DNA of 29,897 nucleotides from a virus. The translations under genes and the position numbers were made by a program. Position 1 is the stretch's first letter; each line of letters opens with the position of its first letter. Below the pieces are notes generated by a model. It was not told where the DNA came from. It saw only the letters and a list, made by a program, of their open reading frames with translations, and did not search any database. Location of the stretch: the UHGV virus genome UHGV-1792943. One strand, 5' to 3'. This document shows positions 15,395 through 29,178 of the stretch, piece by piece.

Positions 15395-18300
15395 TTGAGG
15401 GGGCTTCCTTTGGACAAAATAATTGATTCAATTAGCCAGGCCACCAGCATTGGGGCGCTGATTGAAATTGTTAGTCGGTTGCATAAACCGCGAGCTGTAG
15501 TGACCTTTGGCGTTAAGAAAGTCGATGGCGTCAGTATTCAGAAAACACGCCGGGCAGCAAACAACGCCGCAGTAAATCTTCTTAATTCCCTTCCGCCTGG
15601 CTTCGATGGGGCGAAATTAACTGACGAACAGCGCCAGATTCTTGCCGGGTATACCGGTGAAGGCGGCCTGACAGATGGTGAGGGCAGCCAATACGAATAC
15701 TATACGCCACAGTTTATGGCAGAAGGTATATGGGATCTCTTCGGCGACTACGGTATTGATAGCGGTCACGTACTGGAACCGTCAGCAGGCACAGGTATTT
15801 TCCAGGAGACAAAACGGCAGGGCATGATAATGACCAGCGCCGAACTGTCTCCGATCTCCGGTCGAATAAACCAGCTTTTGCACCCGGAAGATGATGTGAA
15901 TATCGGGGCGTTTGAGGCGCTGGCGGCGAAAGATGCAATGTATGACCACGCAGTTGGTAACGTACCGTTTGGCGAAGGGCGTTCCGGCGTCGCCGGGCTT
16001 GATCCGGCATATGCAAACGAGAAGAACGTTGGCAATTATTTTGTGCTGCGCACGATCGACAAGGTTAAGCCTGGTGGACTAATTGTATTGGTGGTGCCGA
16101 ATGGCATGACCGATGGTACGAAATACAAAAAATTGCGCGATAAAGTCAGCCGTAAAGCGGAATTTTTGGGCGCGCATCGTATGCCTTCTGGTACGTTCAG
16201 CGAATCCGGTACAGATACCGTGGTGGACGTATGGGTATTGCGTAAACACCCGGAAACCTTCCTGGAGATGATCCCCGACACGGATGATGCAACGCTCAAA
16301 TCGGCAAACGTCCTTTGGGATACCTTCCTCAAAGGGAAATGGTTTACAACCGAAGGGAAGCGATTTGTTTACGGCGACATGGAACGCACCAGCTTCCGCA
16401 ATACCCTGGTGGTGAAAAAGGACGGTCGTGTATCCAATGAGTCGATGAAAACCGCGTTATCACGCCGCTTTGAAAGCCGTATTAATTGGGATTTGCTCGG
16501 AGTAACTACCCAGGCATGGCAGGGCGCAAAAGTAGGGGATAAGCGTCTTGTAGGCGGTATCTGGCATGAGTTTGATGGCCTGAAATGGGTTAAGGACACG
16601 ACAACCAAATCCTCCGCGCTTGATGTAAGTCGATATGGTGTTTCGACGTTTGGCGATCTGCAGATCGCGTTCCAGTCAACAAACGGGATTCTGGCTTTGT
16701 CATGGGACCAGATATCGGCGATCGCGTCCGACTATCCATCGGTTGTCAGTGATGAAGTGGCAGCAATGATTCGCTTTGCTGGCAAACAGCGAGAAAAAGA
16801 CAGGGAGCGCGTTATGCGCGGTGCGTTGATAGGGCAGTTGATCAACAAGGCACTTGATTTGCGTAACCTGGGGGTGAACGTTGATGACAAACTGGCAGAT
16901 GCATCCCGCCTGGCGGCAGCAGAAGTTGCGAAGTATGGACCACCGCACGCGATTAAGCTGAATGGGCTTGCTGAAGCTGGCGCTAAAAACTGGATGACGT
17001 TCACTGGCAATGTGAAACAGGATGGTTCCACTTCTGACCTTCTGGCAGGGCGACTTGATGTAACGGATGGTGCTGCCGGTATTGACTTTACACGTCCGGA
17101 ACAAGTGATAGCACATCTTTTCAGTGATGTAGCCCTTAATCCTATAACGCTGGGCGACTTTCGTGAGGCGTTTGCTGGTGAACTGCCAGAGGACGACGAC
17201 GCGGCCCTTGAATACCTGGCGAAATTTGATGATATCGCTATTGATGGGTATGGCTGCCTGCTACCGATGGACCGCGCCACCAGCGGCGATATTGTAACCA
17301 AAACAGCATTGCTGGTGGGCTGGCGTGATGCATCAACAGGTGAGCAGAAAGCGAACTTTGAGCGTCAGTTGGCGAAAATCGAAGAGAAACGCATTTTCAC
17401 GCCACTAAATAAAGTCACCGTTAATCTGAACGCCCGCTGGCTGGATCGCCGCTTGATAAAAGAGTTCCTGGCAGAGCAGGGCTATGACGAGTTTAAGTAC
17501 ACAGAACCTGATCTGAAGATCGTCGATGGCATTCTGGTATCTCCGGACGATTACGAAGGTAAGGACGGGGTATTTACCGGCTATCAGCTACGAACCGTAA
17601 ACGGCAAAAACGGGAATGAGTTCAAGAAGGCCAACAATAAAGACGGCTTCCTGAACCAGTTAGAAAACTACCTGAACGGTGTTAAACCGCGTGGGCAGAA
17701 CGCTAACGAGTACCTGGATAAAATTGCTCAACTGGAAGTTAGCTTTAACGACTGGTTACGCACCCACCCGCAGGCGGATCAGATAGCCCGTGACTATAAC
17801 GACGCATTCAATGGCTTCATTCCGTTCACGCACTCTAACGCACCGCTTGGCCTGGAAGGGATTAGTGGAAAGCGCATTCCTCTGACTTATCAGAATGAAG
17901 AAGTTCGTCGCTTGTCAGAAGATGGGCGCGGCATCATGGGATTTGGTACCGGGCTGGGTAAAACCACGACCGCGCTTGCGCTTGAGGCGTATAACTTCGA
18001 AACAGGTCGTACTAAACGCACGTGTATTGTTGTTCCGAAGGCGGTTTATCAGAACTGGTATCACGAGGCACAGAGCTTCTACAGTGCTGATGCCTTCGCC
18101 AATATGATGTTTATCGGTCTGGATGAAGTTCGTGATGACAGCGGAAATATTCTGACCGCTCCGGTGCTTGATGAAAATGGCGAACCCCGCCTCGACAGTA
18201 ACGGGCAGCCTCTTACCAGAAATGTTGTGAAAGAGTCCGCCAGCGCCGTTATCGTTCAGCGCATGAACATGATCCCGTCGTCAAATTGGCGAACGGTCAT

Positions 18301-21300
18301 CATGACAAAAGAACAATTCGCGTCTATCCCGCTACGAGAAAAAACCATCGAGGAGAACTCACAGCAAGCTGTCTTTAATGCTGTGGAAATGGGGCGTCTT
18401 GACCTGGCGTCTGGTAAACATCGTGATGCGCAGAAGAAGAACAAGATTAAGGATCAGGCCGCGAATACCGGTACAACGAAGAAGCAGAATATCCCGTACT
18501 TTGAGGATATGAACTTCGATAGCGTGATTGCCGACGAGGGGCATAACTACCGCAACTCCTTTAATGCCGGGCGTGAAGCGGGACAACTGGCATATTTGCC
18601 TAACCCGGCAGTATCCAAGATGGCCCGCGACATGGCTGTAAAAGCTGCGTACATGATGAAACGCAACAACGGGCGTGGTGTAGTCATGCTGACGGCAACA
18701 CCGCTGGTGAACAGTCCGATTGATGCCTTCAACATGCTGTCTACAGTCATTCCGCAGGAAGAGTGGATGCGCATGGGCATCATTACGCCTGATGATTTCG
18801 TTCGTGTGTTTGGTAAAACAGCCACAGTTCAGGTCCAGAAAATTTCCGGGGAAGTGGAAGAGAAGCAGGGGCTGGTTGGCTTCCAGAACCTTGATGGCCT
18901 GCGTGGTATTTTCCATCGCTGGACTACTCTGAAGACTGCTGCGGACGTCGGGGCGACGGTTAAAATCCCTGATATTGTCGAGAATACCTTGCAGATCCCG
19001 ATGACAGGGGAGCAGGAGGCTGCTTATGAAGAGCTTCGTAAGCGTGCACAGGAGTTAAGTAGTAAAGATGCGCTGACGGTTGATGAAAACGGGCATATCA
19101 CAAACGAAAAACCGGATGATTTCATCTTCTCCATCATCCGCGACATGGATAAGGTTGCTATAGATCCGGATCTGTATGCCAGTGCGATTACATTCCAGTT
19201 CCCCGTTGAGCTTGCAGACAAGGTAAAAGCTATTGCTGATGCCCTGCCAAAAGTAGCTGGCGGTAAAGTGGCAGATGATGCAGACGAGGCCGAAGAAGAC
19301 GGCGCTGGTGGGCTGGTTAGTACGCGCACCAGTAAGGTAGTGAAGACCACCTTTAGTGAACATCCGGCGCATGTTGAAATACGTGCCAGCATTGAACTGG
19401 AAGCTGAAATACTGAAGGCCATTGCTGCCGCCGGGATTGATATGCAGCAGGTATCACACCCAATCCCGCCGAAGTATGCCGCGCTGATCGAAAACCTTCG
19501 TGAAGGTCTGAAGAACGGTAAACAAATTGTCTTCATTGATGAAAAAGCCCAGCACCAGAAGCTGCGCCGTATTATCGCCAGTGCACTGCAAATGCCGGAG
19601 CAAGAGATAGGCATTATCAATGCGACGACCGTTAGCCAGGCTGGCGGCATCAAGCTGAAGAAGGTGAATAAGCCGACTGAACCTACTCCGAATAAAAACG
19701 GTGAATACAAAGAAGGGGCATGGGAAACCTACTACAGCAAACTTGCCCAATATGAGGATTATCTCTCAGCTAAAAATGATGCTGGCCTTGAGGGTATGGA
19801 AGGCATTGCCGCCGACTATAACGAAGGGCGCACGCGCATAATTATCTGTAACAAGAAGGCTGAAGTAGGTATTAACCTGCATATCGGGACAACCGATATC
19901 CACCACCTGACACTACCCTGGACACCAGCCAGTATCGACCAACGAAATGGGCGCGGTGCGCGCGTAGGTTCACCGCAAGAGAAGGTCAATGTTCACTACT
20001 ATTGTGGCAAAGGCACATTCGACGACTTCCGTCTGGATACGCTGAAACGTAAGAAAGACTGGATCAAGATGGTGATGACCTCCGACATGTCAGAGATCGC
20101 CAATGGTGATGCGGATGATGCTGATGAACGCGCCATTATGCTGGCGGCAAACCCGGAAGAACGCCGCGCAATCATGGCTCGCCAGGCGCAAGAGCGTGAA
20201 GAACGTCTGAAACTGAAAGCACAGCGCGAGGCCAACAATGCTCTCGATATCTACCTGAAAGCGGCAAACGCCGCTGGAAAAGATATCGGCATGATGGAGA
20301 CAGAACTGAAAAGCGCGATGGAACAGATAGAGTATTACCAGCGAAATCTTGACGACCTGATAAAAGCAGGTACGAACAGGAATGGGCAAAAATTCGCGCT
20401 TGAGCAGTTGAGTAGCTACAGAAAACGTGCGCGGGTGCTGCGGTTTGCGATCACCAGGGCAAAAGACGCGGATACCATAATGAAACGCTCTCGTGGTGAT
20501 GTGGAGCGCGCTATTAAGTCTGGTGTGCTGGATATCAGTATCGATGTTATTCAGAACCCACAGGAATATATGCGCACTGACAAGAATATCCTGTTGCATA
20601 AAGGTAGTTATTACCGTGCAGTCATTGATGATCGCGAAACAACAGCGATTGTCCGGGTGGAAAAAATTGACGGTGAAAAAGCACAATACCTCTGCCGTAT
20701 CGCCTGGCTGGATAGAGCAAGTCGTTACGCTCGATCACCGGGGTCAATCGTTACATTGCCGTTTGACTCTGTGATTGAAGCGGTAACTTTTGAAGAGGGG
20801 GTAGCTGAATCGCGCGCAACGGCTGCGCGTGGTGTTCAGTGCCACCAGCTATCAACAATACTTACTCGCGATCAGTTCTATGATGCTATTCGCAATGGGG
20901 TAATGAATGTTATTGCTGGTAAACCTGGTAATGCATGGGGCGGTGGGTCAGCTATTAAATACTGGGCATATCGCACAGATGATGGTCAGATCGCGCTGTC
21001 ATCGGCCTATGATGGCGTGATAGGCCAAAAAATCGGGCGAGCATCGGATATAGCACCTGAACGATGGATATATCCAGATGGCAACGATGAGGCGCTGAAG
21101 CGTGAAGTGGCAAAAATACAAGCCAGTGATAACCCGCTGAATATCGTGGACGGCGAGGGATTCCTCCAGGCATTGTATGGGTATGATTACATCCAGGGAA
21201 TGCAGGCATGGGGCGCACAGGCAACGATGGATGATGTTGTCCAGGAGTTCGAAAACTGGATGGCTGGGCGTGGTCTGTCAGGTCGTTCGCTTAATAAAGT

Positions 21301-22246
21301 CACTTCTGAAGATATTCTTAGCTTGTTCCGCAAACCGTCCGGAGAAGGTCTGGAATCATTCTGGAGGACCGTGCTGGCATACCGTTTATTCAAGGGCAGA
21401 ATGAAAGCCTTTAGCAATATCGATGATATTGAACGGATGTTTAATCAGGTCAAGATCGCCAAAATTAAGACGAAGATCGAAAAAACACGTTCTGCGCTGG
21501 TGGCCTGGCGCGATGCATTGTTTGAGCAATATAAATCACTCAGTGATGCAGATGGATGGGCGGCATTGGAACAGTTGGCGAATAATGGGGTAGATGGAGC
21601 GAAACTCGCCATAGTCCAGGCTGATAACCCCCTGGAATCACCGGCAGCACAGTGGATTAAGGTGGGGGCTGTCATCAATGCATTTGATGAAAAACACATT
21701 AGTAAGGACGATTTTGCTGATGCTGTTTCTGTTAATCGCCTGGTAGAAATGGCTACCCGCCGCGCCCGTGAGTTGAAAGACGGTGACTATGTGAATGAGT
21801 TGCCGGATGCGCTCAAATCAGCAACGTGGCAAGACTATGTATCGCTGAAAAACGGCGGGGCCACCGAATCAGAGATCGCGGAAAGGCTTGAACAGGCTGA
21901 AAGCAAAAGAGAAGAGCAGGCGGCAGTGGCTGAAGCCAGAGCTGATGAAGCGGCGAATGATGACTATATCATTGTGGTTAATGATAAGCCGATTCGCGCT
22001 AAGGCGCGTGTTCGCGGGCGCTGGTGGAGTGTCAGCGAGGACGTCGGTGCGGTTTATCTCATTGCCGACCAACCTGGTTCCTCGACAATACGGAACGCCA
22101 AAGACGCGATTAAGAAGATTGGCGGGCGTTTCTGGAATTTTGAAGCAAACCCGGTTGCTGATGTGAACTTTGACCGTCCTGCATGGATGGTATCTACGCG
22201 TTACTCGGTAGATGAACTGCGTAAAATAATCGCCGATGCGGCCTAA
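15395..22246 (+). CDS. darB: giant N6-adenine methyltransferase plus SF2 helicase protein, DarB-like (2283 aa)
   Basis: MTase motifs YYTP, EPSAGTG (nt 15776-15796) and GNVPFG (nt 15956-15973). Helicase motifs: Walker A GTGLGKTT (from nt 17939), DEGH (nt 18533-18544), TATP, QRNGRGAR. TTG start is uncertain. Architecture and size match phage P1 DarB as recalled. Confidence 0.7.
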   Translation: MRGLPLDKIIDSISQATSIGALIEIVSRLHKPRAVVTFGVKKVDGVSIQKTRRAANNAAVNLLNSLPPGFDGAKLTDEQRQILAGYTGEGGLTDGEGSQYEYYTPQFMAEGIWDLFGDYGIDSGHVLEPSAGTGIFQETKRQGMIMTSAELSPISGRINQLLHPEDDVNIGAFEALAAKDAMYDHAVGNVPFGEGRSGVAGLDPAYANEKNVGNYFVLRTIDKVKPGGLIVLVVPNGMTDGTKYKKLRDKVSRKAEFLGAHRMPSGTFSESGTDTVVDVWVLRKHPETFLEMIPDTDDATLKSANVLWDTFLKGKWFTTEGKRFVYGDMERTSFRNTLVVKKDGRVSNESMKTALSRRFESRINWDLLGVTTQAWQGAKVGDKRLVGGIWHEFDGLKWVKDTTTKSSALDVSRYGVSTFGDLQIAFQSTNGILALSWDQISAIASDYPSVVSDEVAAMIRFAGKQREKDRERVMRGALIGQLINKALDLRNLGVNVDDKLADASRLAAAEVAKYGPPHAIKLNGLAEAGAKNWMTFTGNVKQDGSTSDLLAGRLDVTDGAAGIDFTRPEQVIAHLFSDVALNPITLGDFREAFAGELPEDDDAALEYLAKFDDIAIDGYGCLLPMDRATSGDIVTKTALLVGWRDASTGEQKANFERQLAKIEEKRIFTPLNKVTVNLNARWLDRRLIKEFLAEQGYDEFKYTEPDLKIVDGILVSPDDYEGKDGVFTGYQLRTVNGKNGNEFKKANNKDGFLNQLENYLNGVKPRGQNANEYLDKIAQLEVSFNDWLRTHPQADQIARDYNDAFNGFIPFTHSNAPLGLEGISGKRIPLTYQNEEVRRLSEDGRGIMGFGTGLGKTTTALALEAYNFETGRTKRTCIVVPKAVYQNWYHEAQSFYSADAFANMMFIGLDEVRDDSGNILTAPVLDENGEPRLDSNGQPLTRNVVKESASAVIVQRMNMIPSSNWRTVIMTKEQFASIPLREKTIEENSQQAVFNAVEMGRLDLASGKHRDAQKKNKIKDQAANTGTTKKQNIPYFEDMNFDSVIADEGHNYRNSFNAGREAGQLAYLPNPAVSKMARDMAVKAAYMMKRNNGRGVVMLTATPLVNSPIDAFNMLSTVIPQEEWMRMGIITPDDFVRVFGKTATVQVQKISGEVEEKQGLVGFQNLDGLRGIFHRWTTLKTAADVGATVKIPDIVENTLQIPMTGEQEAAYEELRKRAQELSSKDALTVDENGHITNEKPDDFIFSIIRDMDKVAIDPDLYASAITFQFPVELADKVKAIADALPKVAGGKVADDADEAEEDGAGGLVSTRTSKVVKTTFSEHPAHVEIRASIELEAEILKAIAAAGIDMQQVSHPIPPKYAALIENLREGLKNGKQIVFIDEKAQHQKLRRIIASALQMPEQEIGIINATTVSQAGGIKLKKVNKPTEPTPNKNGEYKEGAWETYYSKLAQYEDYLSAKNDAGLEGMEGIAADYNEGRTRIIICNKKAEVGINLHIGTTDIHHLTLPWTPASIDQRNGRGARVGSPQEKVNVHYYCGKGTFDDFRLDTLKRKKDWIKMVMTSDMSEIANGDADDADERAIMLAANPEERRAIMARQAQEREERLKLKAQREANNALDIYLKAANAAGKDIGMMETELKSAMEQIEYYQRNLDDLIKAGTNRNGQKFALEQLSSYRKRARVLRFAITRAKDADTIMKRSRGDVERAIKSGVLDISIDVIQNPQEYMRTDKNILLHKGSYYRAVIDDRETTAIVRVEKIDGEKAQYLCRIAWLDRASRYARSPGSIVTLPFDSVIEAVTFEEGVAESRATAARGVQCHQLSTILTRDQFYDAIRNGVMNVIAGKPGNAWGGGSAIKYWAYRTDDGQIALSSAYDGVIGQKIGRASDIAPERWIYPDGNDEALKREVAKIQASDNPLNIVDGEGFLQALYGYDYIQGMQAWGAQATMDDVVQEFENWMAGRGLSGRSLNKVTSEDILSLFRKPSGEGLESFWRTVLAYRLFKGRMKAFSNIDDIERMFNQVKIAKIKTKIEKTRSALVAWRDALFEQYKSLSDADGWAALEQLANNGVDGAKLAIVQADNPLESPAAQWIKVGAVINAFDEKHISKDDFADAVSVNRLVEMATRRARELKDGDYVNELPDALKSATWQDYVSLKNGGATESEIAERLEQAESKREEQAAVAEARADEAANDDYIIVVNDKPIRAKARVRGRWWSVSEDVGAVYLIADQPGSSTIRNAKDAIKKIGGRFWNFEANPVADVNFDRPAWMVSTRYSVDELRKIIADAA

Positions 22247-25617: not shown

Positions 25618-25827
25618 AAATTTTAAGGTAAGGGAAAGCTCCGGCACCGTGCAAATACATGCCCGGCAGGTTTAGTGCGTAAAGTGGTTTCAGCGAGAGC
25701 ATTTTACGGAGTAAACGACAGTGACTTGAGCCACGGAAGGTCTTTTTATGGTGTTCATTGATGATGATCTGGCAGTGAGTATGTTAAGTGGGCCAGGCTG
25801 CATCGGGTCATCATCAGTGCACATCCT

Positions 25828-25906
25828 CAACGTTAAGGAGGCGCAGAGTTGGGTTTTCCTCTTATTTTGCTGACTCTGAGTCTCCTTAACGTTGCGGTAA
25901 TGCACC
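25828..25906 (+). repeat. hairpin family member H1 (arms CAACGTTAAGGAG / CTCCTTAACGTTG, tail GCGGTAATGCACC)
   Basis: Inverted arms with the conserved 3' tail shared with H3-H6. Confidence 0.5.
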
Positions 25907-26313
25907 TATGCGGATGTGGCCTTGCATTGTGTCTTGAAAGAATGGGGTAAGGCCGGGGATATTCCCAGGGGGAGGCACCCCCGCTGCAACGAACAGCCAT
26001 AGACGGCAGTCGAGTGATGAAAACGTGAAAAGACTTTAAACCTCGTTACGGCTGGCGTGGCAAACGCGACAACCGGGATAGGACGGTGACGGGCGGAGAG
26101 AGAGCCGCTTCAAGATAAAAGCCGACTATGGATTCCTTTCTGCGGGCCTTTGAAAGTGAATCTTGCTCAGGCAGTCGGCTTTTATGTTGATACGTAGCGA
26201 TAACCGCGACAGGCGCGGCGGTAAGTATGGCGGGGTTATTCCTTCCCCGTTGAGGACACCGAGTTGCCAGGTTGACCATACGCCTAAGTGGCAATACCGC
26301 GAGTGGGATATTT

Positions 26314-26339
26314 GCCCACCTTCGGGTGGGTGTTTTTTC
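26314..26339 (+). terminator. rho-independent terminator
   Basis: cccacc-ttcg-ggtggg followed by TGTTTTTTC. Confidence 0.75.
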
Positions 26340-26522
26340 AGTGTTTTCGTCATGGTTAGCGACTTTGCGGCGGTTTAGAACCCGACCATTAAAGTAAATG
26401 CAAACGATGATCTGATGATGGTAGCGGCCTAAGAAGCCTGACGCCACGGGGTATGAGTCGTCCCCCGTCAAAAAATCGACCGCAGAGTGTCCCCGTCTGT
26501 GTATTAGGGAACGGGGAGGCAT

Positions 26523-26599
26523 AACAGGCAAGGGCGCTGGTGTGATTAACCAGATGAATGAGAAGGGTCAGGTCTTTCTGGTCAGCGCCCTTACCTGTT
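26523..26599 (+). repeat. hairpin family member H2 (arms AACAGGCAAGGGCGCTG / CAGCGCCCTTACCTGTT)
   Basis: 17-bp near-perfect stem; arm sequence related to H3. Confidence 0.45.
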
Positions 26600-26799
26600 A
26601 CGTCCCTCCCGCGTAACAGCCATTGGTTAATGGCTTTCTGGGATAATGTCTTGTAACGGGTATATCCCGTCATGCTGAAGGCGCTAATCACGCTGGAAGC
26701 CAGGGTTATGCATCCCCTGTTACCGAATTGCAGCCAGGGCGCGGTGCGCCGAAAAGCATACGGAGGTGGAAGCCCTCGCCGGAGACGTACCCGGCAAGT

Positions 26800-26876
26800 G
26801 ATGGTGTAGCTCAGTAGGATAGAGCAGCAGCCTTCTAAGCTGTCGGTCGGTGGTTCGAATCCACCCACCATCGCCA
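26800..26876 (+). tRNA. tRNA-Arg (anticodon TCT)
   Basis: Full cloverleaf folded by hand: acceptor gatggtg / caccatc, anticodon loop cttctaa, T-loop ttcgaat, encoded CCA. Confidence 0.8.
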
Positions 26877-26882
26877 ATTTAG

Positions 26883-26968
26883 GGGAGTTAGTCCGTAGGG
26901 GTAGCGGGGTAGACTGTAAATCTACTGTCATTGCGACTCGGATGGTTCGACTCCATCACTCCCCACCA
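26883..26968 (+). tRNA. tRNA-Tyr-like (anticodon GTA), long variable arm, slightly irregular D-arm
   Basis: Acceptor ggggagt / actcccc, anticodon stem gtaga / tctac with loop ctgtaaa, 15-nt variable arm, T-loop ttcgact, CCA. Confidence 0.5.
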
Positions 26969-26972
26969 AATT

Positions 26973-27048
26973 GCCGGTTTAGCTCAGTTGGTAGAGCGCC
27001 TGCCTTGTAAGCAGGATGTCAGCGGTTCGAGTCCGTTAACCGGCACCA
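26973..27048 (+). tRNA. tRNA-Thr (anticodon TGT)
   Basis: Acceptor gccggtt / aaccggc, anticodon loop cttgtaa, T-loop ttcgagt, CCA. Confidence 0.8.
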
Positions 27049-27050
27049 AC

Positions 27051-27146
27051 ACAACAGGTAAGGGTATTTTGCGACGTCGGAGATCGCCGAGCTTGGCAGA
27101 GGGTTCGAATCCCTACGAAGTACCCTTACCGTTGTGATGAATGCAC
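27051..27146 (+). repeat. hairpin family member H3, with an internal T-arm-like minihelix
   Basis: Arms ACAACAGGTAAGGGTA / TACCCTTACCGTTGTG, tail ATGAATGCAC; begins 3 nt after tRNA-Thr. Confidence 0.55.
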
Positions 27147-27315
27147 AGGCTGATGTGCCGCAACTACAGTAGTGCGCGCTTTGCGGGGCTTGCTACAACC
27201 CTGTGTCGGAATTCAGCACCGACCATCACAGTTTGATTCTCTGGCATGAGCATAACGCTGAAATAAGTCCAGTCTGGTGCGGTCTGATCACCCGCCGTTA
27301 GCTCCACGATACGGA

Positions 27316-27416
27316 GCGCACAACAGGTAAGAGTATTTGTAGAGTTCGACTCTCTACCGTGGGCTTTTTCCCGCGATGCGAGCCATAAATGCTCTTTCCG
27401 TTGTGGTGAATGCGCG
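27316..27416 (+). repeat. hairpin family member H4, with an internal perfect T-arm-like hairpin (gtagag-ttcgact-ctctac)
   Basis: Arms GCGCACAACAGGTAAGAGTATTTG / AAATGCTCTTTCCGTTGTGG, tail TGAATGCGCG. Confidence 0.55.
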
Positions 27417-27558
27417 TTGCTAGCGCGCAAGTCCGCCCTATGGCAACGAGGCGGCGTAGTAAATATCGATGCCTCAGTCATCAAGCGCACTGACCGGCCT
27501 TATGGGCTATGAAAAAAAGAGGCGCAGTCGGAGTTCAGCACCGACCATCACAATCACT

Positions 27559-27645
27559 GGAGAGTAGGGAGCATGGTGCTCAAGCGGTCTTGAAAACCGT
27601 CCCATTGCGCAAGCGATGATGGTTCGATTCCATTACTCTCCGCCA
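27559..27645 (+). tRNA. tRNA-Ser-like (anticodon TGA), type II with long variable arm
   Basis: Acceptor ggagagt / actctcc, anticodon stem gcggt / accgt with loop cttgaaa, T-loop ttcgatt, CCA. The D-arm is not perfectly canonical. Confidence 0.45.
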
Positions 27646-27768
27646 GCGCAACGTTAAGAGTATTTGGCTAATTAAGCGAATGCCGGAAGCAGAACCGGAT
27701 CACCAAATGCGTACAGGCGTCATCGCCGCCCAGTCAGCCAAATGCTCTTACCATTGCGGTGAATGCGG
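27646..27768 (+). repeat. hairpin family member H5
   Basis: Arms GCGCAACGTTAAGAGTATTTGGC / GCCAAATGCTCTTACCATTGCGG, tail TGAATGCGGC; starts at the base after the tRNA-Ser-like CCA. Confidence 0.55.
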
Positions 27769-27936
27769 CTAAGCGCACGCGGAACAGTTAAAACAGTAAA
27801 GGTGGTCTTTTTACTGGCGTAACGAGAATCCATAAGTGATCCGGCGTTAATTGTTAACTGGTTAACGTCACCGGGAGGCACCCGGCACCGCAACCTAACA
27901 GCAATGGCGTTTTGTCTTAAAAGGTGGCTGCAAGTG

Positions 27937-28065
27937 ATGGATTTTTGGGCGTTTGCCGATAAAAACCCGGAGTGGACATTATTGTTTCTGCTGGTGGTTG
28001 CATACGGGGTAGAGCAAGCGGCAAAAGCCTTACGCGGTTCTGGCAAAAAGCGTAAGCGTAATTAA
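27937..28065 (+). CDS. 42-aa small membrane peptide (MDFWAFADKNPEWTLLFLLVVAYGVEQAAKALRGSGKKRKRN)
   Basis: SD AAGGTGG 8 nt upstream of the ATG; one hydrophobic helix and a basic tail; absent from the ORF track because it is under 60 aa. Confidence 0.35.
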   Translation: MDFWAFADKNPEWTLLFLLVVAYGVEQAAKALRGSGKKRKRN

Positions 28066-28074
28066 CAGTAATCT

Positions 28075-28150
28075 GGCCCTTTAGCTCAGTGGTTAGAGCG
28101 GGCGACTCATAATCGCACGGTCACCGGTTCAAGTCCGGTAGGGGCCACCA
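28075..28150 (+). tRNA. tRNA-Ile2 (anticodon CAT, lysidine type)
   Basis: Near-identical to the enterobacterial ileX-type tRNA as recalled: acceptor ggccctt / aggggcc, anticodon loop ctcataa, T-loop ttcaagt, CCA. Confidence 0.8.
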
Positions 28151-28329
28151 CATTTGGTTGTAACACGGCGTATGGCACATGCGTCGTTAGCGGTCTGGTG
28201 TAGCTGTTAGGTACCTTTTACTAACACTGCATGGGCACACCAGGTAGCCGGAATGTGCAAGCCCCGTTCATAGCGTCGGACTGCGGATTCACCATCCTGG
28301 CGATTCGGTGTGACAGCCGGAAGAGCACG

Positions 28330-28391
28330 GCGTACAACAGGAAAAGGCGTTTAATTAGCGTGAGCGCCGTTTCCGTTGTGGTAATTGCGGC
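28330..28391 (+). repeat. hairpin family member H6 (short-loop version)
   Basis: Arms ACAACAGGAAAAGGCG / CGCCGTTTCCGTTGTGG, tail TAATTGCGGC. Confidence 0.5.
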
Positions 28392-28602
28392 TATGCGCTC
28401 GTAACGAAGCCATTTTCATTCACTACGTTCTGATAAGGGTCGTCCCGGGGCGTGGCTACCCGGGCAGGGGGGGGCCCCCCCGCCACAACTCCTTTCAATT
28501 CATCATATAGCCGCTCAGGCTGTAACCCTTAATTAATACGAAGTTACGACGTCACTACCGGTTCAGCCGGGGGATAGTCGCGCGTGTAAAAAAGGAGACG
28601 TT

Positions 28603-29178
28603 ATGTTAACGGCGAACGATAACGCGTATTTAGAAGATGATCTCGTTTTGAGTGACTTTATAGGGCGACGAGAATGCTGGACGCAAAAGCGCGAGGAGCT
28701 TTATGCAGCGTTAGTTCGTAAAGGCGTCAACATCGAAACCGCACAGAACGGTGATATGACAGTGGTAAGTGTTGGACTGCACGGCGTAAGTGTGTCAGCA
28801 ATCAATCATGAGCCGTACATTGCGTTATCCGAGTCGATGGTAAGGTTAGTTAAGTTCCTGAAGTACACAGAAGCGAATAACGTGCTCATTGCCAAAAAGA
28901 ACATCCCGTTCTCATCGGCCTTTTACTGGATGATGAAGGGGCTTGATGCCCGGCGAACATCATGGCCTAAAGGGAGCTATATATCGATGCTCCGTGGCAG
29001 TGTTGGTAGCAAAGAAAAGCTCGTCGAATTCCTGCCGGAAGAGGCATTCGATATTGTTGAAGGTTGTGATGTGATGGTTATGCCTCGCCTGGTAATGATG
29101 AATGGGGATTTACAGGCGCAGACAGACTGGTTTGCAACTGGAGTTGATATTATCGCTACTGACTGGGAGGTTTTTTGA
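28603..29178 (+). CDS. hypothetical protein with C-terminal DUF2829 (Tad2)-like domain (191 aa)
   Basis: SD AGGAG. C-terminal half carries ARRTSWPKG and AQTDWFATGVDIIATDWEVF, matching the two small ORFs at 13893 and 23628. Confidence 0.6.
   Translation: MLTANDNAYLEDDLVLSDFIGRRECWTQKREELYAALVRKGVNIETAQNGDMTVVSVGLHGVSVSAINHEPYIALSESMVRLVKFLKYTEANNVLIAKKNIPFSSAFYWMMKGLDARRTSWPKGSYISMLRGSVGSKEKLVEFLPEEAFDIVEGCDVMVMPRLVMMNGDLQAQTDWFATGVDIIATDWEVF

What the first reader, a model, noticed from the sequence alone, without database searches (positions are those of the whole stretch)
27937..28065. Unannotated 42-aa membrane peptide immediately upstream of tRNA-Ile2
It has a good SD, one hydrophobic helix and a strongly basic tail (GKKRKRN), the profile of type I toxins or small membrane regulators, and sits inside the RNA locus where an antisense partner could exist.
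Basis: seen in the sequence. Interest (0 to 1): 0.4.

Follow-up and report, generated by a model that had tools for sequence, protein, structure and literature searches.

The report
Phage P1 TciC-like small membrane protein
The 42-codon reading frame is a real, selectively maintained gene for a tiny single-helix membrane protein, a relative of the named but uncharacterised TciC of phage P1, and nothing supports the idea that it is a toxin with an antisense-RNA antidote.

Summary
The ORF exists exactly as described: ATG 27937 to TAA 28065, 42 aa, AAGGTGG 9 nt upstream, one helix, a +7 C-terminal tail, and 9 nt before a CAU-anticodon tRNA-Ile2. The window is a D6/P1-like phage-plasmid of E. coli. 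The ORF is the positional and sequence homologue of P1 tciC (P7 upf69.6, phrog_23152). RefSeq already annotates identical copies as a 43-aa hypothetical protein. It is coding. Changes are mostly synonymous in its own frame (dN/dS about 0.08-0.18 among 42-aa alleles; pS 0.84 against pN 0.17 versus D6), while the other two frames give ratios between about 0.5 and 2.8. The genes upstream of it vary: tciA-tciB, an SPFH lipoprotein cassette, a 77-aa membrane ORF, or, as here, a deletion remnant. The peptide gene stays intact in all of these and is still under purifying selection when it stands alone. A profile search finds about 30 further clusters of 30-46-aa relatives. These include T1-like and P2-like phages, always inside co-directional gene arrays, often with overlapping stop and start codons. 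No opposite-strand promoter, own promoter or similarity to known type I toxins was found. The best reading is an autonomous phage inner-membrane micro-protein whose target is unknown. Interest is low to moderate.

The parts
27937..28065 (+). tciC-like gene: 42-aa single-pass membrane micro-protein (MDFWAFADKNP motif, TM helix, basic tail) plus stop codon
   Evidence: ORF and sequence. Homology to D6 and P1 TciC and phrog_23152. Purifying selection. Helix model.
27920..27927 (+). Shine-Dalgarno-like AAAGGTGG, 9 nt before ATG 27937 (6 nt before GTG 27934, the PGAP start)
   Evidence: Read from the sequence. In L008 the same bases are the 3' coding end of the upstream 77-aa ORF. The motif is weakened to GGTAG or GATAG in some stand-alone relatives.
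27904..27936 (+). Remnant of an upstream 77-aa membrane ORF. Its start and last ~19 nt are kept and about 200 nt are deleted. In this window it happens to be in frame with the peptide gene.
   Evidence: Alignment with L008, L006 and L013. The in-frame extension is not conserved.
28075..28150 (+). tRNA-Ile2 (anticodon CAU), the conserved downstream neighbour
   Evidence: ARAGORN, Rfam 66.7 bits, PGAP tRNA-Ile, P1 trnI annotation, 98.7% identity to P1 trnI.
27559..27645 (+). tRNA-Ser (UGA), the upstream boundary of the variable cargo slot that ends at the peptide gene

Best explanation
The ORF is a real gene, the D6-lineage 42-aa allele of the P1 TciC family. Shown: it is under purifying selection at the protein level. 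Shown: it lies in a 3-kb RNA-rich stretch (four other tRNAs, then tRNA-Ile2, then a Tad2-like anti-Thoeris gene) that has no promoter-like site closer than about 2 kb upstream. Inferred: it is translated from a polycistronic transcript. In this window translation would start at its own AAGGTGG/ATG, because the upstream cistron has been deleted. Where an upstream cistron exists, translation would be by stop/start coupling. Inferred from the positive-inside rule and the model: the product inserts into the inner membrane N-out/C-in. This places the conserved 11-residue M-x-F-W-x-F-x-D-K-x-P head at the periplasmic face, one TM helix in the membrane, and the lysine/arginine tail in the cytoplasm. 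Inferred from distribution: it acts on its own as a small membrane effector or regulator of a host envelope component during phage development. It is not an obligate subunit of the TerB-like TciA/TciB pair and not the toxin of a type I toxin-antitoxin pair. The target is unknown.
For: Identity. The window is D6/P1-like. The ORF sits in the same position as P1 tciC and P7 upf69.6, immediately 5' of trnI. The unannotated D6 homologue is 73% identical (E 4e-10). phrog_23152 matches residues 1-33 (E 0.0018), and 24 of 31 extended-family members hit the same PHROG. Coding. Window vs L006 gives 7.5 synonymous against 2.5 non-synonymous differences (dN/dS 0.08, binomial p 2e-4). Window vs D6 gives pS 0.84 and pN 0.17 (p 1e-5). 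The two other frames give ratios between about 0.5 and 2.8. The ORF is a divergence island, 72% nt identity to D6, between flanks that are 96-99% identical. Autonomy. The gene is intact behind five different upstream contexts: tciA-tciB; a 72-aa protein plus a Band_7/SPFH lipoprotein; a 77-aa membrane ORF; the deletion remnant; and an independent tciAB deletion in L033. Window and L006 share the same deletion remnant, so their 8:2 synonymous:non-synonymous divergence (rounded counts) accumulated while the gene stood alone. A profile search of 1.84 billion representatives gives about 30 full-length 33-46-aa relatives. Members in T1-like Shfl1 (directly after pnk) and P2-like phiT5282H score 37-40 bits, against a best of 15.6 bits among 20,000 shuffles. 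Operon context. The gene always lies in co-directional arrays, often with overlapping stop/start codons. Structure and topology.
Against: There is no experimental evidence of translation or membrane insertion for any family member. P1 tciC scored non-essential in a CRISPRi screen (PMC10695390), and RCS47-type P1 relatives have deleted all but the last ~17 nt of it, so any function is dispensable for plaque formation. The strongly hydrophobic core in this allele is short (about residues 13-25). Each allele type tends to travel with one kind of upstream cassette (36-aa type with tciAB, 42-aa type with the 77-aa ORF or SPFH). A cassette-accessory role in the ancestral state therefore cannot be excluded. 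Topology and target are inferences.
Confidence: 0.55

Rival explanations
1. Type I toxin-antitoxin module. The peptide would be a membrane-depolarising toxin whose translation is held in check by a cis-encoded antisense RNA from the opposite strand of the RNA locus.
For: The peptide has the generic look of such toxins: under 60 aa, one hydrophobic helix, a charged tail. The element is a plasmid-prophage, which would benefit from addiction modules.
Against: No promoter-like site on the minus strand in 25800-28700 at 9/12, nor in 27880-28330 at 8/12 (0 observed, about 1 expected by chance). No minus-strand terminator. No own promoter on the + strand; the start codon overlaps upstream stops in relatives. 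No match to Pfam toxin families, and nothing above shuffle level for Ldr, Hok, TisB, ShoB, DinQ or Fst against the family HMM. Homologues sit in T1-like phage genomes and in early-gene arrays of uncultured phages. The antisense fold is not unusual (z -0.9).
Confidence: 0.07
2. Orphaned accessory subunit. TciC would work only together with the upstream membrane cassette (TerB-like TciA plus DUF3927 TciB, or SPFH plus a small membrane protein), and the copy in this window would be a functionless leftover of a deletion.
For: In P1, P7, SJ46 and D6 it is the third, translationally coupled gene of tciA-tciB-tciC. In other lineages it is next to SPFH cassettes. This window carries a visible deletion scar upstream. 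The SD is degraded in some stand-alone relatives.
Against: Purifying selection persists among stand-alone copies that share the same scar (window vs L006, 8 synonymous: 2 non-synonymous in rounded counts, p 2e-4). A second, independent tciAB deletion (L033) also kept the ORF intact (D6 vs L033, 6:2). All 93 plasmid copies of the 42-aa type are full length by tblastn. Family members in T1-like, P2-like and uncultured phages have no TerB or SPFH neighbour.
Confidence: 0.15
3. Cis-acting element. The act of translating a short ORF that ends 3-9 nt before tRNA-Ile2, or the RNA sequence itself as a 5' leader, would matter for maturation or stability of the tRNA precursor, and the peptide would be incidental.
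For: Across P1-, D6- and Enterobacter-type elements the stop codon lies 3-9 nt from the tRNA 5' end. RCS47 keeps just the last ~17 nt in front of the tRNA.
Against: Selection acts on the amino-acid sequence while synonymous sites are saturated, the opposite of what an RNA-level constraint predicts. In Leclercia and Pantoea, and in 8 of 10 contexts outside P1/D6-type elements, no tRNA follows or lies within 3 kb. The leader fold is not unusual (z -0.29).
Confidence: 0.05
4. Chance ORF, not a gene.
For: It is very short, has no Pfam or NCBIfam family, and is unannotated in several records.
Against: Frame-specific synonymous excess, intact in all relatives examined, and a conserved motif across phage families.
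Confidence: 0.02

Closest known systems
TciC of phage P1 (AAQ14046.1) = Upf69.6 of P7; PHROG phrog_23152 (unknown function)
   Same: Same position, immediately 5' of tRNA-Ile2 in the tRNA/ban-type operon of a P1-like plasmid-prophage. Same architecture: M-x-F-W-x-F-A-D-K-x-P head, one TM helix, L-R-basic end. Linked through the D6 intermediate (73% identical) and an HMM hit.
   Different: Only 37-39% identical to P1 TciC. It is 42 aa rather than 35 aa and has a much longer basic tail (GSGKKRKRN against KQ). It stands alone, without tciA and tciB, and uses its own SD instead of stop/start overlap. The name 'tellurite/colicin resistance/inhibition of cell division' is by association with TerB only and was never tested.
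Type I toxins (Ldr, Hok, TisB, ShoB, DinQ, Fst)
   Same: Size, single hydrophobic helix, charged C-terminus.
   Different: No sequence relationship, no antisense promoter, no own transcription unit, operon-embedded, and present in T1-like phage genomes.
Small inner-membrane regulators of enterobacteria (e.g. AcrZ, MgtS, MgrB), named from general knowledge and offered as an analogy only
   Same: 30-50-aa bitopic peptides with a short exposed head and positive-inside tail, which act by binding a larger membrane protein.
   Different: No homology was tested or claimed. Those are chromosomal and individually regulated. This one is phage-borne and co-transcribed with tRNAs and accessory genes.

Membership tests
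TciC / phrog_23152 | Sequence match to the family profile over the full length | tested here: met
   phrog_23152 matches residues 1-33 of 35, E 0.0018, which is weak. This is reinforced by 73% identity to the D6 homologue (E 4e-10). D6-type and P1-type TciC peptides fall together with this ORF in the profile searches, and P1 TciC hits phrog_23152 at 3e-27. 24 of 31 extended-family members hit the same PHROG.
TciC / phrog_23152 | Position immediately upstream of tRNA-Ile2 in the tRNA operon of a P1-like phage-plasmid | tested here: met
   9 nt before the tRNA here, 3 nt in P1 and P7, 9 nt in D6.
TciC / phrog_23152 | Third gene of tciA-tciB-tciC with start overlapping the tciB stop | tested here: not met
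   tciA and tciB are absent from the window. Only a scar of a different 77-aa ORF lies upstream. This is a feature of the P1 operon rather than of the protein family.
Type I toxin-antitoxin | Small hydrophobic membrane peptide | tested here: met
Type I toxin-antitoxin | Antisense RNA gene with its own promoter overlapping or adjacent to the toxin mRNA | tested here: not met
   No promoter-like or terminator-like site on the minus strand. These are consensus scans only, so a non-canonical promoter is not excluded.
Type I toxin-antitoxin | Independent transcription unit with a structured leader that restricts translation | tested here: not met
   The nearest + strand promoter-like site is at 25934-25963. 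The leader fold is no better than shuffles. Stop/start overlap with upstream ORFs is seen in relatives.
Type I toxin-antitoxin | Homology to a described toxin family | tested here: not met
   Pfam gives none at E<=10. BLASTP against LdrA finds nothing. The six toxins tested (two Ldr sequences confirmed by Pfam; the other sequences recalled from memory) fall below shuffle level against the family HMM.
Type I toxin-antitoxin | Growth arrest or membrane damage on expression, neutralised by the RNA | not testable with these tools
   Needs an experiment.

The most novel reading that the evidence does not exclude
TciC-like peptides would be a broad, so far undescribed family of phage micro-proteins. 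They occur in P1/D6-like plasmid-prophages of several enterobacterial genera, in T1-like and P2-like phages, and in about 30 clusters from uncultured phages. Under this reading they have a conserved, autonomous job at the host inner membrane, for example neutralising or hijacking one host envelope or defence component through the invariant FW-x-F-x-DK-x-P head. Their presence in hot spots for accessory and anti-defence genes (next to Tad2 here) would reflect that role.
Probability: 0.3. Interest if true: 0.5.

Novelty: new member of a known kind. Interest (0 to 1): 0.25.

Why it matters
On its own this matters little. It attaches a 'hypothetical protein' of about 90-kb E. coli phage-plasmids to the named P1 gene tciC and removes a tempting but unsupported toxin label. 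Two points have wider value. First, the name TciC ('tellurite/colicin resistance') is probably misleading, because the peptide is maintained without the TerB-like partner genes and occurs in phages that lack them. Second, the family is much wider than the PHROG suggests. That makes it a tractable example of a conserved phage micro-protein of unknown function in the best-studied model phages (P1, T1-like, P2-like), where a knockout and a pull-down are easy.

Tried and rejected
1. Ldr toxin resemblance (FWHDLAAP against FWDFADKHP, both 35 aa). I recalled this from memory and tested it. BLASTP finds nothing and the family HMM scores Ldr below shuffles, so it is rejected. 2. A general link between the family and tRNA or tRNA-repair genes. 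This was suggested by tRNA-Ile2 here, a tRNA-Leu 200 nt downstream in L041, pnk in T1-like phages, and RNA ligase and Thg1 in L045. Only 2 of 10 contexts outside P1/D6-type elements have a tRNA within 3 kb and neighbours are otherwise unrelated, so I keep it only as a weak lead. 3. The scan of the species-representative genome collection found no confirmed relative. 4. PADLOC gave no defence-system match for the peptide or for the cargo genes. Pfam and NCBIfam gave no family for the peptide. 5. Folds of the sense leader and of the antisense strand were no better than shuffles. 6. A P1 C1-operator consensus search of the window gave no match at up to 3 mismatches, so repressor control of the operon could not be shown here. 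7. The P1 genome paper is not held in the library, and no ribosome-profiling data for P1 were found. 8. The 108-aa ORF on the opposite strand (27720-28046) is open only in the window-type alleles and carries stops in D6 and L033, so it is rejected as a gene.

Full report
OBSERVATION. ATG is at 27937 and TAA at 28063-28065. The product is 42 aa: MDFWAFADKNPEWTLLFLLVVAYGVEQAAKALRGSGKKRKRN. AAAGGTGG lies at 27920-27927, 9 nt before the ATG. A CAT-anticodon tRNA follows at 28075-28150, 9 nt after the stop. ARAGORN calls that tRNA Met. PGAP calls the identical gene tRNA-Ile, and it is 98.7% identical to P1 trnI, annotated tRNA-Ile2. Hydropathy peaks over residues 13-25. The head has net charge -1 and the tail +7. 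AlphaFold2 on a 12-sequence alignment gives helix 3-9, a break at residue 10 next to Pro11, helix 11-37 and a disordered tail, with mean pLDDT 81.5. The mechanical ORF list starts at an upstream in-frame ATG (27904, 53 aa). That extension is interrupted by a stop in close relatives. In the Enterobacter homologue the codon before the ATG is a stop. ATG 27937 is therefore the conserved start.

WHAT THE WINDOW IS. The region matches Escherichia phage D6, P7, P1 and SJ46. It is 100% identical to about 90-kb non-mobilizable E. coli plasmids such as pMUB-MIN14-1. This is a D6/P1-like phage-plasmid. In P1 the homologous stretch is the ban operon, controlled by the C1 repressor: tRNA-Asn, tRNA-Thr, tciA, tciB, tciC, trnI, ban. 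In D6-type elements trnI is followed by a Tad2-family gene, lpa and pacA.

IDENTITY. P1 TciC and P7 Upf69.6 (35 aa, MGFWDFADKHPIVLVVIAGIVVGGIAGVIEALRKQ) occupy exactly this position. D6 has an unannotated 36-aa ORF, MDFWTYIDKNPGWSLLFLLVIVYGVEQVAKNLRRRK, whose ATG overlaps the tciB stop. That ORF is 73% identical to the window peptide (E 4e-10). The window peptide hits the TciC PHROG, phrog_23152, over residues 1-33 (E 0.0018). Pfam and NCBIfam have no family for it. RefSeq already annotates identical copies as a 43-aa hypothetical protein, WP_255097511.1, from GTG 27934. 'Unannotated' is therefore true only of some records.

IS IT CODING? Yes. Window vs L006 gives 7.5 synonymous and 2.5 non-synonymous differences (dN/dS 0.08). 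The range among 42-aa alleles is 0.08-0.18. Against the 36-aa D6 allele, pS is 0.84 (saturated) and pN is 0.17. The two other frames of the same strand give ratios between about 0.5 and 2.8. Binomial tests against the share of synonymous sites give p = 2e-4, 1e-5 and 2e-3 for three comparisons. The ORF is intact in all 34 related loci collected, and 93 plasmid records carry a full-length 42-aa copy. Rare frameshifted versions exist as single sequences (P0009, P0010). The ORF is a divergence island: 72% nt identity to D6, between RNA genes that are 96-99% identical. The alleles are therefore old and have been exchanged by recombination.

SURROUNDINGS. The space between tRNA-Ser and this gene is a cargo slot with variable content:
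- tciA (TerB domain) plus tciB (DUF3927) in D6, P1, P7 and SJ46.
- A 72-aa membrane protein plus a Band_7/SPFH lipoprotein in L022-L027.
- A 77-aa two-helix membrane ORF in L008.
- Nothing but a scar of that ORF in the window and in L006-type plasmids.
- An independent tciAB deletion in L033.

Wherever an upstream ORF exists, its stop overlaps the peptide's ATG (TGATG). The AAGGTGG of the window is the former 3' coding end of the deleted ORF. Window and L006 share that scar, so the 8:2 synonymous:non-synonymous divergence between them (rounded counts) arose while the gene stood alone. RCS47-type P1 relatives have lost all but the last ~17 nt. The literature reports that about half of one P1 subgroup lack tciABC (PMC9603915). 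P1 tciC was non-essential in a CRISPRi screen (PMC10695390). The gene is therefore dispensable but selectively maintained where present.

WIDER FAMILY. tblastn finds diverged copies on phage-plasmids of Enterobacter (67%, also directly before tRNA-Ile2), Leclercia (49%, before a lipoprotein gene) and Pantoea (44%, before a 75-aa ORF and an SPFH gene). A profile search of 1.84 billion representative proteins returns 45 hits at E<=1e-3. About 30 of these are 33-46-aa peptides matched end to end, with the pattern M-x-[FL]-[WFY]-x-F-x-[DSN]-x-x-P-x-[WL]-T, a hydrophobic helix and a basic end. The rest are long hydrophobic proteins with many short stretches and were discounted. 24 of 31 family members hit phrog_23152. 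None has a name other than 'hypothetical protein', and none has a Pfam domain. Their contexts are co-directional arrays of small phage genes, often with overlapping stops and starts, next to ThyX, AAA_24, DNA polymerases, DHFR, HNH, RNA ligase or Thg1. An unannotated 36-aa member directly follows pnk in T1-like Shfl1, and a 30-aa member follows the lysis cassette of P2-like phiT5282H. Both score 37-40 bits against a family HMM, where the best of 20,000 composition-matched shuffles scores 15.6 bits.

TESTING THE TOXIN IDEA.
- No sigma-70-like promoter or terminator on the minus strand in 25800-28700.
- No promoter at a looser 8/12 threshold in 27880-28330 (0 observed, about 1 expected).
- No + strand promoter closer than 25934-25963.
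- Sense-leader and antisense folds are unremarkable.
- No Pfam toxin family.
- My recalled resemblance to Ldr fails BLASTP.
- Ldr, Hok, TisB, ShoB, DinQ and Fst fall below shuffle level against the family HMM.

Operon embedding, translational coupling and occurrence in T1-like phage genomes and early-gene arrays also argue against an addiction module. Toxicity itself could not be tested.

MOST LIKELY MECHANISM. Shown: this is a conserved protein-coding gene of the TciC family that lies in a promoter-less, RNA-rich operon segment. Inferred: it is translated from the polycistronic transcript and inserted N-out/C-in, with the conserved head at the periplasmic face. Inferred: it acts autonomously on a host membrane component. 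The target is unknown. Rivals, with my probabilities: orphaned accessory subunit of the upstream membrane cassettes (0.15), type I toxin (0.07), cis-acting translation or leader for tRNA-Ile2 (0.05), chance ORF (0.02).

VERDICT. Interest is 0.25. The one point of wider interest is that the family is far broader than its PHROG and independent of the TerB genes that gave it its name.

Noticed in passing
window 25968-25982 and 27871-27885 (+); variant copy about 28463-28477; D6 L001 1188, 2827, 3998; also L002, L035, L037, L038, L039: A repeated hairpin: a 5-bp G+C stem of variable sequence, an invariant loop AGGCA, usually followed by (C/G)C-N-(G/A)-CAAC. The stems differ between copies but always pair (GGGGG/CCCCC, CCGGG/CCCGG, GGTGG/CCACC, GCTGG/CCAGC). 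At the orthologous site D6 has the compensatory CCTGG/CCAGG and P7 has a G-U variant. The window has 3 hits against 0.4 expected, one of them an A+T-rich minus-strand hit at 18719 outside the RNA locus. The first copy lies just after the only promoter-like site of the locus. The geometry (5-bp stem, 5-nt loop) recalls lambda boxB, so a nut-like or processing signal is possible but untested.
   Followed up: partly
window 27646-27790 (+): The 145 nt right after tRNA-Ser are 98.6% identical to D6 and nearly invariant across window, D6 and P7 types. This is far more conserved than the peptide gene. They fold into a long hairpin. This is a candidate small RNA or processing element. A sub-threshold Rfam STnc100 match lies just downstream and overlaps only its 3' end (27755-27892, 40.8 bits against a gathering score of 47).
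   Followed up: partly
window 28151-28600 (+): A 450-nt ORF-poor stretch between tRNA-Ile2 and the next gene. It is 90% identical to D6, and its first ~180 nt are conserved at 84-89% in P1-like phages. It contains a terminator-like hairpin at 28346-28368 and a G8C7 palindrome at about 28463. No Rfam match.
   Followed up: no
window 28603-29178 (+): A 191-aa protein with a Tad2-like (Thoeris anti-defence) domain (Pfam E 4e-10). PGAP names it a Tad2 family protein. An Enterobacter homologue carries the PGAP name 'MW1434 family type I TA system toxin'.
   Followed up: partly
window 26160-26340 (+): A strong intrinsic-terminator-like hairpin (TGCCCACC-TTCG-GGTGGGTG followed by T6) at 26313-26332, inside the non-coding stretch upstream of the tRNA cluster. 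A weak permuted-tmRNA Rfam match lies at 26290-26432 (24 bits, far below threshold). It may mark the end of a small RNA.
   Followed up: no
window 15395-22246 (+): A 2283-aa ORF with N6-methylase, SNF2/ResIII and helicase-C domains. The domain set resembles what I recall of P1 DarB, but I did not compare it with DarB directly.
   Followed up: partly
window 26800-27048 versus D6 and L006 types: The tRNA set differs between otherwise near-identical elements. The window has Arg(TCT)-Tyr(GTA)-Thr(TGT); L006 and L033 have Arg-Thr; D6, P7 and L022 have Asn-Thr. The tRNA cluster itself is a recombination hot spot.
   Followed up: no
L050 (Shigella phage Shfl1, NC_015456.1 7180-7290): An unannotated 36-aa TciC-family ORF (MNLYEFIAAHPVLTVIILLIINHTIINVAKLFLGRC). 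Its ATG overlaps the stop of polynucleotide kinase. It is conserved in many T1-like phages.
   Followed up: partly
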